Positions 24,618-28,136 of a stretch of DNA of 42,824 nucleotides are shown piece after piece; position 1 is the first letter of the stretch, and the number at the start of each line of letters is the position of its first letter. The stretch is taken from the UHGV virus genome UHGV-0137073, one strand, 5' to 3'. This stretch comes from a virus. The notes below the pieces were generated by a model. That model worked only from the letters and a program-made list of their open reading frames with translations, had not been told where the DNA came from and did not search any database. Made by a program: the position numbers and the translations under genes.

Positions 24618-24968
24618 TTAAAGCCCCATCGCAACAGCCAGACAGACCGCTGCAACAATCAGTGCACGGCGGATTAACGCAGCAGAAAACACCAGGTGAA
24701 GGCCGGTCTGTACCGGGAAACGCCCATCAGCCATCAGCCTGTCGTCATGTTTCAGGTACTGACCGGGACGGGCTTTGGGGAAGAGCGAACGGTCAAGCCA
24801 GTAACCCAGCACTGCTGCCAGCGTGATGAGTGCCAGCTTGTAGATCACAACAGGCAACTGCTGTGGCGAGACCAGAGCGATGGTGCCCAGCAACAGCACT
24901 GAGGTCAGCAGCCAGCCGCTGAGGCGAGGTTTTTTAACAGGGGGAATGAATTTTTTCAGGTTTTTCAT
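24618..24968 (-). CDS. Putative holin (three predicted transmembrane segments)
   Basis: 116 aa from the ATG with strong SD (AAGGAG-N7-ATG); three hydrophobic helices; stop overlaps the endolysin start. Confidence 0.5.
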   Translation of the reverse strand: MKNLKKFIPPVKKPRLSGWLLTSVLLLGTIALVSPQQLPVVIYKLALITLAAVLGYWLDRSLFPKARPGQYLKHDDRLMADGRFPVQTGLHLVFSAALIRRALIVAAVCLAVAMGL

Positions 24969-24972
24969 GTGT

Positions 24973-24994
24973 GTCTCCTTGTCTGGTGGAGACA
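24973..24994 (-). promoter_or_regulatory. Stem-loop that can sequester the holin Shine-Dalgarno
   Basis: Inverted repeat tgtctcc (24973-24979) / ggagaca (24988-24994); the AAGGAG of the holin start lies in one arm. Confidence 0.35.
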
Positions 24995-25098
24995 GCATCA
25001 CAAATACAGGGCGCGAAGGATTTTAAAGCGCGTTAAGAGAGCCGGGGATACGGGATGTGCAGGATAAACGATGAATTATTCACAGAGGAGAATACGAT

Positions 25099-25842
25099 AT
25101 GACGCAGACACTGAATCCGGTCATCACTGTCACCGTGTCCGGTCCTGTGGGCAGCGGTAAAAGTTACATATTGGCGCGGATAGAGGAAGTGGTGAAACAG
25201 GAATTCGGGGGCAGCGTCATTGTCGATGCTGCAGACGTAGATGATGAGCGGCGTATGAGTGGCGATGATCTGACGACCTGGCAGAAGCCACGGGGTGGCA
25301 CAGTGATCAGGCTGGAGGAATACACGGGACAGGGCCTGTTGTCATACGGCGAGGAGCGTATCTGTCGGACGAATGAGCTGCTGGATGTTATATGCCCCAC
25401 GGGCCGGCAACCCTGGATACTGCCCGATGCACTGCATGCCACCATTGCGGCACTGATGACAGTTTACGATCAGGAGCTGCTCATGAAGGAGCTACGTAAA
25501 CTCACCGGTCAGCCAACAGAATGTTTTTCTGCCCCGAAGTACGGGAAACAGGAACACATCCCGGTGAACACGCTCCCCGTTAACCAGCCTCCCCGGTTCT
25601 TCGACGAATACATTCTGACACCGGAAAATAAAGCTGAGCACGAAGAGATCAAAGCGGCGTTGTTCCGGGAAATCAGGAAGATTGCTGAAATGCAACTGGG
25701 GGGCGGGCTGGACAGAGTGATGGCGAGAGGAGAATGGGAGTCGCTGTTTGAAAGAGTTTCCCCGGAATTACTTCCCCTCGCACTGGCTATCGGGATTATG
25801 CAGACAGCGGATAAACCTCACTTACGTTCATTAAACACGTAA
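25099..25842 (+). CDS. Hypothetical P-loop NTPase-like protein (accessory gene)
   Basis: Walker A-like GPVGSGKS near the N-terminus; GAGGAG Shine-Dalgarno; divergent from the late operon; no family recognised. Confidence 0.5.
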   Translation: MTQTLNPVITVTVSGPVGSGKSYILARIEEVVKQEFGGSVIVDAADVDDERRMSGDDLTTWQKPRGGTVIRLEEYTGQGLLSYGEERICRTNELLDVICPTGRQPWILPDALHATIAALMTVYDQELLMKELRKLTGQPTECFSAPKYGKQEHIPVNTLPVNQPPRFFDEYILTPENKAEHEEIKAALFREIRKIAEMQLGGGLDRVMARGEWESLFERVSPELLPLALAIGIMQTADKPHLRSLNT

Positions 25843-26222
25843 CGCATAATCCGGGATACGCATTCAGCGATGACTGCATTTTCACCGGTTTTTACTGCAT
25901 CCAGAAGTGACTCTTTAAATGGTGCGGGCCGGGGCTGCAGAAGGGTCGGCGTGGCATTGAGCAGACGGAGCGTTTTTTCCGTGAGGACGACATCAGCCGC
26001 TCCCACAGCCAGCAACTGAGAGTAACGAATATAGCTGTTATCCCGAAGCCATATCAGCGTATCAATAAAATACCGGCACTTTTTCTGGTCGTGATCAACC
26101 TGGTCCGGGATATCGAAAAAACCAGAATAAATCAAAACCTGAGGTGCCGGATGCGTGTTCAGTAATCGGCAGAATATTTTGCCGGTGAGTGCATAAAAAT
26201 CATCATTTAAGGAGTGCATCAT
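25818..26222 (-). CDS. Hypothetical protein (accessory gene, convergent with the P-loop gene)
   Basis: 134-aa ORF exactly fills the gap between two + strand genes; start codon overlaps the divergent start of the next gene. Confidence 0.4.
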   Translation of the reverse strand: MMHSLNDDFYALTGKIFCRLLNTHPAPQVLIYSGFFDIPDQVDHDQKKCRYFIDTLIWLRDNSYIRYSQLLAVGAADVVLTEKTLRLLNATPTLLQPRPAPFKESLLDAVKTGENAVIAECVSRIMRYVFNERK

Positions 26223-26436
26223 GAATCCCCGATTAACGTTAACAGAACATCAGCGCCGTGCTGAAGCAGTGAACAATGTTCTGGAAGATATTATCCGGTT
26301 ACATCGCGGAGAACTGAGTGTCTGTCGTGCCGCTTTTCATTTTCAGGGAATACAAAAGCAGTTTGATACTTCTGTTTTTGCAGAAGGTATTACTTATGCC
26401 CTGGACCGGATAAGGTCAGAAAATCGCCCCGGATAA
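26221..26436 (+). CDS. Hypothetical small protein (accessory gene)
   Basis: 71 aa with strong TAAGGAG Shine-Dalgarno. Confidence 0.45.
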   Translation: MNPRLTLTEHQRRAEAVNNVLEDIIRLHRGELSVCRAAFHFQGIQKQFDTSVFAEGITYALDRIRSENRPG

Positions 26437-26627
26437 TCCCTAAACCACATTAACAGAAATCCCACTATCCCTGCCGCATCATGAAAGAACGACCAGCCCG
26501 GTGCTTCGGACCCACCGGGCTGGCCATCGTCCCACAGAAGTGGCTGTGAGCCGACCGAGGTTCAGTCAGTCTCGCGAGACCAGACTAGCCTGCCATATTT
26601 TTAATAATTGTAAAAGGCTTACAGATT

Positions 26628-27392
26628 ATGAAAATGAAGACATTACCCATCGTTCCATGGATTGGTGGCAAACGTCGCCTGGCAAAACACATCCTGCCGC
26701 TGTTTCCGGCGCATGAATGTTATGTGGAGCCGTTTTGTGGGGCAGCAGCGCTCTATTTTCTTAAGACACCCGGCAAGATCGAAGTCATCAATGATATCAA
26801 CGGTGAACTGGTGAATCTGTACCGGGTGGTAAAGCATCACCTGGAAGAATTTGTCCGCCAGTTCAAATGGGCGCTGGTCAGCCGTCAGATCTACAAATGG
26901 CTGCAGATCACCCCGGAAGAAACACTGACGGATATCCAGCGTGCGGCACGGTTCTACTACCTTCAGAAGCAGGCGTTTGGCGGCAAGGTGGCAGAGCACA
27001 GCTTCGGTACCTCCACCACATCCCCGCCACGCTTCAACCTGCTGCGTATTGAAGAAGAACTGTCAGCAGCACACCTGCGGCTTTCCAGAACAGTCATAGA
27101 ACACATGGACTGGCAACAGTGCATTGAGCGTTATGATCGTCCGCACACACTGTTCTACTGCGACCCACCGTACCTGGGTACGGAAGGCTATGGTGTGGAT
27201 TTTCCTGAAGGGAACTACTCGCGGCTGGCAGAGCTGGCCCGGTGCATCAGAGGAAAAATGATAATTTCGGTGAACGATATCCCACAGATGCGCGAGGTGT
27301 TCACTGGACTGAACATACAGACAGTGAACATCAACTACAGTCTGGCGGGGAAATCTACGCCGCGCCGTGAACTGGTAATCTGCAACTTCTGA
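26628..27392 (+). CDS. DNA adenine methyltransferase (Dam-like, D12 class)
   Basis: N-terminal AdoMet region PWIGGKRRL...FCGAAA and catalytic DPPY motif (CDPPYLGTEGYG). Confidence 0.85.
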   Translation: MKMKTLPIVPWIGGKRRLAKHILPLFPAHECYVEPFCGAAALYFLKTPGKIEVINDINGELVNLYRVVKHHLEEFVRQFKWALVSRQIYKWLQITPEETLTDIQRAARFYYLQKQAFGGKVAEHSFGTSTTSPPRFNLLRIEEELSAAHLRLSRTVIEHMDWQQCIERYDRPHTLFYCDPPYLGTEGYGVDFPEGNYSRLAELARCIRGKMIISVNDIPQMREVFTGLNIQTVNINYSLAGKSTPRRELVICNF

Positions 27393-27399
27393 AACAAAA

Positions 27400-27422
27400 C
27401 CGGAAAGCACAATGCTTTCCGG
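27400..27422 (-). terminator. Putative intrinsic terminator downstream of the repressor gene
   Basis: Perfect 9-bp stem ccggaaagc/gctttccgg with 5-nt loop, T-rich tract on the minus strand. Confidence 0.45.
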
Positions 27423-27508
27423 TAAACCAAACAACTTCCACTATGTCACTGGCGATGTTTTCTGAAAGCATCCAGATCAACCACCTGTCCTTTGTGTCCA
27501 GGTCAAAA

Positions 27509-27847
27509 TCAGCCTGCGAGTTTGCTTGGTTTGGGTTGAATGAAGACTTTGCCGACCTCAAGAATTGCCCTCCGTTGTTCGGGGCTCATTTCGTCGAATG
27601 CATCCATTAACTCTTTCTTTTCTTGTGACACATAAGGTGCAACAACAGGCTGACTCCGCACCCCAGTAACTACATACAAAATATCTACACCGATTTCTGA
27701 TAGTGCAGATAACTGCACTGCAGTAGGAGAAGTGCGATCTTTTTCCCAATCAATGAAAGTTCTCTTTGCCACACCTATAGCATCAGCCAACCCTTGCTGT
27801 GTAAGAGATAGACGCTCTCTTTCTTCTTTAATACGTAACCCGATCAT
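27509..27847 (-). CDS. HTH XRE-family repressor (putative prophage repressor)
   Basis: MIGLRIKEERERLSLTQQGLADAIGVAKRTFIDWEKDR helix-turn-helix; divergent from the ner-like early operon. Confidence 0.7.
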   Translation of the reverse strand: MIGLRIKEERERLSLTQQGLADAIGVAKRTFIDWEKDRTSPTAVQLSALSEIGVDILYVVTGVRSQPVVAPYVSQEKKELMDAFDEMSPEQRRAILEVGKVFIQPKPSKLAG

Positions 27848-27947
27848 GTGAGTTTTTCTGCACTCTTTAAGTTGACTGGTGAGGTAATCTGCACCATAAT
27901 CTATCACACATAAGGCAAACATCATTGCATCAACAAAGGAGACAACG

Positions 27948-28136
27948 ATGACTGCAGAACAAGTCAAAGCTCTCTTCCGCCAGCGCGGGATCACTTTCAC
28001 CCGCTGGGCAGAAGAAAACGGCTACAACCGCAATGAGGTATACCGCGTTCTCAATGGGCAGACCAAAGCCCGTTACGGTAAATCCCATGAAATCGCCGTG
28101 AAGTTGGGGCTGAAATCAACAGCTCAGGCAGCCTGA
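27948..28136 (+). CDS. ner: Ner-like DNA-binding protein (early operon regulator)
   Basis: 62 aa; first gene of the rightward operon; motif pattern ...GITFTRWAEENGY...EIAVKLGL resembles Ner/Nlp proteins. Confidence 0.55.
   Translation: MTAEQVKALFRQRGITFTRWAEENGYNRNEVYRVLNGQTKARYGKSHEIAVKLGLKSTAQAA

What the first reader, a model, noticed from the sequence alone, without database searches (positions are those of the whole stretch)
25002..26627. Uncharacterised three-gene accessory module between the lysis cassette and the Dam methylase
Between the start of the late operon and the Dam-like gene lie three ORFs with no recognisable phage role. One is a 247-aa protein with an N-terminal Walker A-like motif GPVGSGKS (25099-25842). 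A convergent, overlapping 134-aa ORF follows (25818-26222). A 71-aa ORF (26221-26436) has a start codon overlapping the 134-aa ORF start divergently. Their organisation breaks the co-linearity of the flanking operons. A GC-rich stem-loop with a UUCG-like loop (26493-26523) lacking a U-tract follows. This is a typical position and architecture for a prophage-borne defense, anti-defense or toxin-antitoxin-like cargo, and I cannot match any of the three proteins to a known family by eye.
Basis: inference. Interest (0 to 1): 0.65.

Follow-up and report, generated by a model that had tools for sequence, protein, structure and literature searches.

The report
Mobile three-gene prophage cargo cassette
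The three unannotated genes are real, conserved cargo in a swap-prone slot of a Mu-like E. coli prophage; two of them form a head-to-head pair, sharing the letters of their start codons, that also sits in the known anti-phage "hotspot" of unrelated P2-like phages, so they are a good untested candidate for phage-versus-phage conflict genes.

Summary
All three ORFs exist at the stated coordinates. PGAP annotates them as hypothetical proteins, and they occur in about 9% of complete E. coli genomes (492-499 of 5426). None matches a known family.

Comparative genomics confirms that the locus is cargo. Homology among related BcepMu-like prophages stops at about 25040 and resumes at 26481, with at least 12 different gene sets in between.

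The trio is not uniform:
- **247-aa protein (A).** It is a mosaic. Its N-terminal ~75-aa Walker-A mini-domain is a resident of this position, always the first gene divergent from the holin. Its C-terminal parts vary.
- **134-aa (B) and 71-aa (C) genes.** They form a mobile pair whose start codons share the tetranucleotide CATG. The same pair occurs in Serratia and Salmonella Mu-like prophages and in the gpA-cos-gpQ defence hotspot of P2-like phages, next to a type VI retron. It is under strong purifying selection there (dN/dS 0.08 and 0.16).
- **A's last ~60 residues.** This module always travels with B/C.

The geometry makes the two ribosome-binding regions mutually antisense, which implies either/or expression. 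The biochemical function is unknown; a conflict role is inferred from location only.

The flagged hairpin is not part of the cargo. It is helix P1 of a widespread, covarying, structured RNA element in front of the Dam gene.

The parts
25020..25039 (.). Left boundary of the cargo slot. The conserved motif ATTTTAAAGCGCGTTAAGAG lies in the holin-proximal intergenic region. Homology among related prophages ends at 25035-25039.
   Evidence: BLAST breakpoints; intergenic alignment of 14 loci
25099..25842 (+). Gene A, 247 aa: a mosaic protein with a strong SD (GAGGAG) 8 nt upstream.
   Evidence: phrog_3787; dN/dS about 0.2 among E. coli variants
25099..25323 (+). A N-terminal mini-domain, residues 1-75. 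It carries Walker A GPVGSGKS (25141-25164), an invariant W61 and a near-invariant E74. This is the only part of A that is conserved widely.
   Evidence: Exhaustive phmmer search; alignment A2; generic P-loop beta-loop-alpha hits only; AF2 pLDDT 82-90 for this segment
25654..25839 (+). A C-terminal module, residues ~186-247 (QL..D.V..R..WE..L...LL). It co-occurs with the B/C pair and is a free-standing 89-aa protein in Serratia.
25818..26222 (-). Gene B, 134 aa (133 aa if it starts at 26219). It is the only reverse-oriented gene and is convergent with A (25-nt overlap).
   Evidence: phrog_2266; P2-type homologues have dN/dS 0.08
25851..26168 (.). Segment deleted in a rare natural variant (e.g. 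NZ_CP076279). The deletion removes most of B and leaves A and C intact.
   Evidence: Genome counts: B 492, A C-terminus 499, C 499
26220..26223 (.). CATG shared by the start codons of B (- strand) and C (+ strand). Each gene's Shine-Dalgarno lies in the other's first codons (C: AAGGAG 26209-26214; B: complement of 26227-26231).
   Evidence: the same geometry in 53/53 viral-contig loci and in L021; P2-type consensus
26221..26436 (+). Gene C, 71 aa, co-directional with A and Dam.
   Evidence: phrog_4490; P2-type counterparts have dN/dS 0.16
26482..26627 (+). Conserved structured element upstream of Dam; NOT cargo. Helices: P1 26493-26503/26513-26523; CACAG 26533-37 / CUGUG 26544-48; P3 26558-26591. 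Segments AGCCU (26587-91) and CUGUGAGCC (26544-52) are complementary to the SD region (26612-26624).
   Evidence: no Rfam match
26628..27392 (+). Dam-type (D12 class) N6-adenine methyltransferase: right-hand neighbour, semi-conserved in this slot.
   Evidence: Pfam PF02086, E = 6e-29

Best explanation
The locus is a horizontally mobile accessory cassette in the cargo slot of a BcepMu-like transposable prophage. The slot lies between the lysis/late operon and the Dam/repressor region.

The functional core is the B/C gene pair (134 aa and 71 aa). The two genes are arranged head to head, so that their start codons share CATG and each ribosome-binding site is encoded inside the other gene. In Mu-like phages the pair comes with a ~60-aa helical module. 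Here that module is fused to the end of gene A, whose N-terminal 75-aa Walker-A mini-domain is a resident of this genomic position.

Shown:
- the cargo status of the locus;
- the mosaic structure of A;
- the conservation of the pair, its geometry and its purifying selection;
- the pair's presence in the P2 defence hotspot.

Inferred from geometry: the 5' ends of the B and C mRNAs must be mutually complementary across both translation start regions. The two genes therefore cannot be efficiently expressed together. B is read from the strand of the repressor and late genes. C is read with A and Dam from the other strand, through antisense B.

Inferred from location only: B is an effector used in phage-versus-phage conflict (superinfection exclusion or defence in the lysogen). 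C, with or without the A tail module, is its counter-acting or regulating partner, made when the opposite strand is transcribed.
For: Cargo slot:
- Homology breakpoints lie at 25035-25039 and 26481/2, and at least 12 different gene sets were seen in 15 related loci.

A is a mosaic:
- Only residues 1-75 are conserved across 55 database relatives.
- A family member is the first gene next to the holin in all ten BcepMu-like loci that carry one.

The tail module is linked to B/C:
- It is present in 4/4 lineages with B/C, including a stand-alone 89-aa gene in Serratia.
- It is absent in 6/6 loci without B/C.

The B/C pair is conserved:
- Serratia B is 53% identical, in the same three-gene order.
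- The pair is present in Salmonella.
- It occurs in P2-like phages and 43 viral contigs at ~30% identity.
- The CATG start overlap is found in 53/53 loci plus L021.
- dN/dS is 0.08 for B and 0.16 for C.

Orientation: B is the only reversed gene in every context.

Location in the P2 hotspot:
- The pair lies between gpA/DinI and cos/portal, as that hotspot is defined in PMC9122126.
- It is adjacent to a type VI retron (RT_VI E = 5e-104, HTH_VI E = 4e-31).

Prevalence and linkage in E. coli: A tail 499, C 499 and B 492 of 5426 genomes.
Against: - No biochemical or phenotypic evidence exists for any of the three proteins.
- No hit to any PADLOC defence model, Pfam or NCBIfam family or solved structure.
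- The AF2 model of B is unusable (pLDDT 48).
- The model of A gives no fold match.
- No convincing sigma-70 promoter was found for B or C, so which strand is active in the lysogen is unknown.
- Hotspots also carry non-defence cargo (PMC9122126).
- Among close E. coli variants B shows 6 non-synonymous and 0 synonymous changes. The numbers are too small to interpret.
- The linkage of the A tail to B could merely reflect their overlapping 3' ends.
Confidence: 0.4

Rival explanations
1. Anti-defence or host-takeover operon. A, C and Dam form one rightward operon expressed on infection or induction to protect phage DNA and disarm host immunity. A's variable C-terminal modules are diversifying inhibitor domains. 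B is an unrelated nested moron.
For: - A, C and Dam are co-directional and closely spaced.
- Dam-type self-methylation is an established anti-restriction strategy (general knowledge).
- A shows a conserved N-terminus with rapidly shuffled C-termini.
- Remote relatives of A's N-domain sit among early-type genes of lytic phage contigs.
Against: - B/C occur without Dam (L021; all P2-like loci).
- Dam occurs without A, B or C.
- The invariant start-codon overlap ties C to B, not to Dam.
- No similarity to known anti-defence proteins was found; hhalign against T7 gp5.5/5.7 gave probability below 2%.
Confidence: 0.2
2. Toxin-antitoxin or addiction-type module. B is a toxin and C (and/or the A tail) is its antidote, stabilising the prophage or aborting infection.
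For: - A small partner gene is tightly coupled to a larger one, and the pair is mobile among phages.
- At the level of genome counts, C and the A tail (499 genomes each) are found without B, but B (492) is not found without them.
- Reciprocal antisense control resembles type I TA logic.
Against: - The genes are divergent rather than an autoregulated bicistronic operon.
- No known toxin or antitoxin domain was detected.
- B is not an antitoxin for A or C, because it can be deleted.
- The proteins are neither strongly basic nor membrane-active.
Confidence: 0.15
3. Phage-internal regulatory switch. B and C are a pair of small regulators (for example a DNA-binding protein and its antagonist) that tune lysogeny, late transcription or Dam expression. 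They would not be conflict genes.
For: - Divergent, mutually exclusive gene pairs are typical of phage switches.
- The locus lies close to the repressor in Mu-like phages, and close to the early operon end in P2-like phages.
- C has a weak HTH-like match (HTH_psq, E = 0.08).
- One source names a B relative 'DUF2513'.
Against: - Most relatives of both phage families lack the pair, so it cannot be essential to their regulation.
- The DUF2513 name was not reproduced by Pfam scans.
- The proteins are neutral to acidic (pI 4.6-8.0).
- No operator-like space lies between the genes.
Confidence: 0.15
4. Decaying or selfish filler. The genes are carried passively and have no current function in E. coli.
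For: - Distribution of the exact proteins is narrow, almost only E. coli.
- dN/dS is relaxed for B and C among close variants.
- A deletion variant exists.
Against: - ORFs are intact in about 98% of carriers.
- Purifying selection is strong over longer distances.
- Architecture is conserved across genera and across phage families.
Confidence: 0.05

Closest known systems
Cargo of the P2-like phage defence hotspot (gpA-cos-gpQ; old, tin, retrons, PARIS-type systems; Rousset et al. 2022, PMC9122126)
   Same: Homologues of B/C sit in exactly this hotspot, next to a type VI retron. The window locus is an analogous swap-prone slot in a different temperate phage family, and the cargo moves between unrelated phages.
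   Different: - No sequence or profile similarity to any catalogued system.
- No recognisable enzymatic or sensor domain.
- Very small proteins.
- Anti-phage activity is untested.
Excludon / cis-antisense divergent gene pairs, and type I toxin-antitoxin antisense control
   Same: Divergent genes whose 5' regions overlap, so each transcript is antisense to the other's translation start. Mutually exclusive expression is predicted.
   Different: - Both strands encode conserved proteins.
- The overlap is reduced to a shared CATG with reciprocal embedded Shine-Dalgarno sequences.
- Transcripts have not been mapped.
P-loop NTPases / designed minimal 'phosphate-loop' proteins (e.g. PDB 6c2u)
   Same: A's N-terminus has a canonical GxxGxGK[ST] motif between a hydrophobic strand-like segment and a helix. 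Profile hits are confined to this beta-loop-alpha element.
   Different: - The conserved domain is only ~75 residues and also exists as stand-alone 78-92-aa proteins.
- Some members have a degenerate motif (AESSGKN).
- No P-loop family threshold is reached.
Phage Mu com-mom translational control (knowledge of the Mu system; not tested here)
   Same: For the neighbouring Dam leader only: a structured 5' region whose helices can sequester the ribosome-binding site of a phage DNA-modification gene.
   Different: - No sequence similarity.
- No Com-like zinc-finger gene.
- The element accompanies a D12-class Dam gene, not Mom.
- The acting strand and the regulatory ligand or protein are unknown.

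Membership tests
   - B, C and A's C-terminal part are absent from KP12, L004-L007, L009, L010 and L079-L081.
- Only A's N-terminal domain is semi-conserved, and it is missing in 4 loci.
Prophage accessory cargo ('moron') in a variable hotspot | Variable gene content between conserved flanks; the same genes occur in unrelated phages | tested here: met
   - Breakpoints lie at 25035-39 and 26481/2.
- At least 12 arrangements were seen.
- B/C are also present in P2-like phages.
Prophage accessory cargo ('moron') in a variable hotspot | Own promoter and terminator; expression from the repressed prophage | tested here: inconclusive
   The consensus scan found no convincing promoter for B or C. Expression state cannot be read from sequence.
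P-loop NTPase (gene A) | Walker A GxxxxGK[ST] | tested here: met
   GPVGSGKS at residues 15-22. G20 and K21 are invariant in family alignment A2, but some members carry AESSGKN.
P-loop NTPase (gene A) | Walker B and a five-stranded alpha/beta core; score above a family threshold | tested here: not met
   - The conserved domain is ~75 aa.
- The only Walker B candidate is hhhhEE at 69-74.
- Best Pfam hit is 17.1 bits against a cut-off of 27.
- The AF2 model shows no strands by DSSP.
Type II toxin-antitoxin system | Co-directional two-gene operon with a recognisable toxin or antitoxin domain | tested here: not met
   B and C are divergent; A and B are convergent. No TA domains in Pfam, NCBIfam or PADLOC.
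Type II toxin-antitoxin system | The antitoxin cannot be lost while the toxin is intact | tested here: inconclusive
   B is deleted in 7 genomes with A and C intact, so B is not an antitoxin. B as toxin with C as antidote is not excluded.
Known anti-phage defence systems (PADLOC-DB v2) | Significant match of any component to a defence-system model | tested here: not met
   Best hits are E = 0.005 (mad8) and 0.03 (SngB), on the P-loop motif only. B and C have none.
Cis-antisense / excludon-type gene pair | Divergent genes whose 5' transcript regions must overlap | tested here: met
   Start codons share CATG, and each SD is inside the partner's coding region. The transcripts themselves could not be observed.
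DUF2513 (name attached by UniRef to Serratia homologue P0031) | Match to Pfam PF10711 | tested here: not met
   No Pfam hit for P0031 at E <= 0.01, nor for any of 6 family members at E <= 10.
T7 gp5.5/5.7-like (HHpred note in the phage Midge record) | Profile similarity to T7 gp5.5 or gp5.7 | tested here: not met
   hhalign of the B family profile against gp5.5 and gp5.7 gave probabilities of 0.1% and 1.3%. The templates were single sequences, so sensitivity is limited.
Rfam RNA families (for the hairpin / Dam leader) | Match to any of the 4227 covariance models | tested here: not met
   Only chance-level miRNA and snoRNA hits at E >= 0.17, none in 26482-26627.

The most novel reading that the evidence does not exclude
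B/C is a previously unrecognised two-protein anti-phage (or self-immunity) system. It has a built-in antisense toggle created by the shared CATG start, and it is exchanged between P2-like and Mu-like temperate phages. In Mu-like phages it is plugged, through an adaptor tail, onto a natural ~75-residue minimal P-loop domain. Alongside it lies a new structured riboregulator that controls a phage Dam methylase.
Probability: 0.25. Interest if true: 0.75.

Novelty: new variant of a known kind. Interest (0 to 1): 0.55.

Why it matters
**Prevalence.** The cassette is carried by roughly one in eleven complete E. coli genomes, including ST131 clinical strains, yet all three proteins are blank in every database searched.

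**A testable candidate.** The B/C pair recurs in the best-documented prophage defence hotspot. It also has an unusually rigid, conserved gene geometry. That turns an anonymous "hypothetical protein" cluster into a concrete candidate for a new conflict or regulatory system, made of a pair only ~620 bp long.

**Gene A.** Its family offers natural ~75-residue Walker-A proteins with shuffled tails, which is of interest for minimal P-loop evolution.

**Dam leader.** The adjacent element is a widespread, covarying RNA structure with no Rfam family. It may control epigenetic or anti-restriction methylation in transposable phages.

Tried and rejected
**Family scans.**
- Pfam, NCBIfam, PADLOC and PHROGs scans of the three proteins and of their relatives gave only PHROGs of unknown function and sub-threshold P-loop hits.

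**Profile searches against PDB sequences.**
- The A N-domain, B, C and A-tail profiles were searched.
- Only the generic Walker-A element matched.

**AlphaFold2.**
- A reached pLDDT 61, with a confident N-domain.

**Leads from database names.**
- The 'DUF2513' name for a B homologue was not reproduced.
- The 'T7 gp5.5/5.7-like' note in the phage Midge record was not reproduced.
- The PGAP name 'ABC transporter ATPase' for truncated A variants rests on the Walker-A motif alone.

**Other negatives.**
- No LexA boxes near the locus, so no SOS-controlled antirepressor idea.
- Sigma-70 promoter scans were not above chance.
- No literature hit for the protein accessions.
- Nothing on these genes in the P2-hotspot papers read.
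- A weak B-like hit in Nitratiruptor phage NrS-1 lacks the partner gene and was set aside.
- Synonymous-site conservation near the shared start is only mildly raised.
Full report
**1. Context.**
The window is a BcepMu-like (genus Bcepmuvirus-type) transposable prophage of E. coli inserted next to yjjW.
- In identical RefSeq prophages the minus strand carries tail, head, terminase and lysis genes, up to a Holin_2-3 holin.
- The plus strand carries a Dam methylase, Ner-like and IclR-like regulators, a MuA-like transposase, an ExeA/MuB-like ATPase, Gam and Mor.
- An HTH repressor lies on the minus strand at 27509-28000.
- The 2.8-kb region around the finding is found in 636 of 5426 complete E. 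coli genomes, 492 of them with at least 80% coverage. These include O25b:H4-ST131 strains. It is also found in Escherichia phage PhiKM.

**2.
- The three ORFs, the 25-nt convergent overlap and the overlapping divergent starts are exactly as reported.
- PGAP annotates all three as hypothetical proteins.
- I call them A (247 aa, 25099-25842 +), B (134 aa, 25818-26222 -) and C (71 aa, 26221-26436 +).
- Each belongs to a PHROG of unknown function (3787, 2266, 4490).
- No Pfam, NCBIfam or PADLOC family is matched beyond sub-threshold hits to A's Walker-A motif.

**3. The locus is cargo in a hypervariable slot.**
Related prophages share the holin and its upstream region up to 25035-25039. Similarity resumes at 26481/2 where Dam is present, or only at the repressor/Ner region (about 27895) where it is not. 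Between these points the content differs:

| Locus / source | Content of the slot |
|---|---|
| L008 | A-C-Dam, without B |
| L004 | Truncated 158-aa A, plus two membrane proteins |
| L005, Klebsiella phage KP12, L081 | DUF2441 proteins |
| L007 | Dam pseudogene plus others |
| Salmonella diarizonae, Citrobacter braakii, metagenomic loci | Further combinations |

**4. Gene A is a mosaic.**
- An exhaustive phmmer search of 1.8 billion representatives found 55 relatives. Apart from near-identical E. coli proteins, they match only residues 1-75.
- Their C-terminal regions are built from different, shuffled modules.
- The N-domain has an invariant G20-K21, W61 and a near-invariant E74. It also occurs as stand-alone 78-92-aa proteins, and a few members have a degenerate motif.
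- A profile of the N-domain hits only the generic strand-P-loop-helix element of ABC ATPases, kinases and a designed 'phosphate-loop protein'.
- I therefore call it Walker-A-bearing, not a demonstrated NTPase.
- In all ten BcepMu-like loci that have a family member, it is the first gene divergent from the holin. Remote members lie in lytic-phage-like contigs.
- Among E. coli variants A has dN/dS of about 0.2.

**5. B and C are a conserved, mobile pair.**
- B's nearest non-E. coli relative (Serratia, 53% identity) lies in BcepMu-like prophages in the same order: holin, then an 89-aa gene convergent with B, then B, then a divergent 73-aa gene, then Dam.
- The 89-aa protein has no P-loop. It aligns with the last ~60 residues of A (46% identity over 48 residues, E = 1e-9).
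- In Salmonella contigs two other A variants with this same tail are again followed by B and C homologues.
- Six A variants with other tails are not followed by B or C.
- More distant B homologues (about 30% identity) occur in P2-like phages (Klebsiella ST147-VIM1phi7.1, Escherichia phage Midge, Salmonella FSLSP004) and in 43 viral contigs. In every case a divergent 63-66-aa gene accompanies them.
- In 53 of 53 viral-contig loci and in L021 the two ATGs share CATG. One Salmonella lineage (L077) has an 8-nt overlap instead.
- Each gene's Shine-Dalgarno lies in the partner's first codons, both in the window and in the P2-type consensus.
- The P2-type genes are under strong purifying selection: median dN/dS 0.08 for B and 0.16 for C. 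Both are therefore real proteins.
- In every context B is the only reversed gene. An upstream gene (A, DinI or a retron RT) converges on it, and C continues that gene's direction.

**6. Location in P2-like phages.**
- The pair lies between gpA/DinI and cos/portal. This is the hotspot shown experimentally to hold anti-phage systems (PMC9122126, read).
- In ST147-VIM1phi7.1 the immediate neighbour is a type VI retron.
- This is guilt by association. The same paper notes that non-defence cargo occurs there too.

**7. Linkage and loss in E. coli.**
- The A-tail segment and C each occur in 499 genomes, and the interior of B in 492.
- The difference corresponds to a deletion of 25851-26168 that leaves A and C intact.
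- B is therefore not an indispensable antidote for A or C.
- B as a harmful effector with C as antidote remains possible.

**8. Mechanistic reading.**
- What the sequence shows directly: the mRNAs of B and C must overlap across both ribosome-binding sites, so they are mutually antisense.
- What I infer: an either/or switch. B is read from the strand of the repressor and late genes. C is co-transcribed with A and Dam through antisense B.
- I assign the conflict (exclusion or defence) role with modest confidence. The main rivals are an anti-defence operon with Dam, a TA-like addiction module and a phage-internal regulatory pair.
- Physicochemical properties do not discriminate between these: pI 4.6-8.0 and no transmembrane segments.

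**9. The hairpin belongs to Dam.**
- Region 26482-26627 is conserved wherever Dam is present, whatever lies upstream. It persists even beside a Dam stub.
- On 14 leaders, 96% of predicted pair cells are canonical, against 32-49% when partners are slid, and 6 pairs show compensatory changes.
- A motif scan of viral contigs returned 119 extractable sites. Of these, 102 have a Dam homologue (55-100% identity), in most cases starting ~66-86 nt downstream and most often at 72 nt.
- Fifty diverse leaders support the following helices, with 18 of 36 pairs covarying:
  - P0, a closing helix (GAGC/GCUC);
  - P1, the flagged hairpin;
  - P2, with an invariant CACAG/CUGUG stem and a hypervariable loop;
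  - P3;
  - pairing of AGCCU with the Shine-Dalgarno AGGCU.
- A competing CUGUGAGCC:GGCUUACAG pairing also covers the SD region.
- Strand evidence is mixed. Most helices have G-U pairs on the plus strand. P1 has many C-A pairs, which read as G-U on the minus strand. On that strand P1 is followed by CGCUCUUU(U), so it may double as a minus-strand terminator shielding the cargo and lysis genes.
- No Rfam family matches.

**10. Verdict.**
- The specific functional guesses remain untested.
- The TA variant is weakened and the module's anatomy is revised.
- The locus is a good experimental target, and the Dam leader comes as an additional find.

Noticed in passing
window 26482-26627 (P1 26493-26523; CACAG 26533-37; CUGUGAGCC 26544-52; P3 26558-91; SD 26612-17): There is a ~150-nt structured element in front of the Dam gene, with many compensatory base changes and segments able to sequester the Dam ribosome-binding site. 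It precedes a Dam homologue at 102 of the 119 viral-contig sites where its motif was found. It has no Rfam family. It is a candidate new cis-regulatory RNA, and P1 may also act as a minus-strand terminator.
   Followed up: partly
window 24966-24993 (minus strand): The holin's Shine-Dalgarno (GGAG) lies in the 3' arm of a hairpin, GUCUCC-N9-GGAGAC, directly upstream of its ATG. The hairpin is kept, with different sequences, in Salmonella, Citrobacter and Serratia relatives. This may be translational control of lysis timing.
   Followed up: no
window 25020-25039 and 25055-25062: The motif TTTTAAAG-GC-TTAA-AG is almost invariant in all 14 related holin-upstream regions, and a conserved (T)GCAGGAT lies ~20 nt further on. 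It is probably the late (activator-dependent) promoter region for the lysis operon and/or the start signals for gene A.
   Followed up: no
L019 5556-6792 (Klebsiella phage ST147-VIM1phi7.1) and several IMG/VR contigs (e.g. L034, L049, L057): A type VI retron (RT plus HTH protein) is annotated only as 'polymerase' and 'helix-turn-helix protein'. It sits directly beside the B/C homologues in the P2 hotspot. Other contigs carry a GNAT acetyltransferase there instead.
   Followed up: partly
L004 6014-7672, L007 4750-5319, L002 6371-6904, L080 5567-5938, L010 8568-8903: In related prophages the genes next to the repressor encode predicted membrane proteins (glycine-zipper plus C-terminal TM) or lipoproteins. 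These are typical of superinfection-exclusion or lysogenic-conversion cargo. None matches PADLOC.
   Followed up: no
L004 5500-5976 and proteins P0017/P0019: Truncated or alternative versions of gene A (141-158 aa) are named 'ABC transporter ATPase' in RefSeq. The name rests only on the Walker-A motif and is misleading.
   Followed up: partly
window 27399-27423 (minus strand): A strong intrinsic terminator (11-bp stem plus U-tract) follows the repressor gene on the minus strand. On the plus strand, after Dam, it has no U-tract. Dam-strand transcription may therefore run antisense into the repressor gene.
   Followed up: no
window 24618-25001 vs 24618-24968: The mechanical ORF for the holin starts at a GTG (127 aa). 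PGAP and the alignment of relatives favour the ATG at 24968 (116 aa), which has the SD hairpin just upstream.
   Followed up: partly
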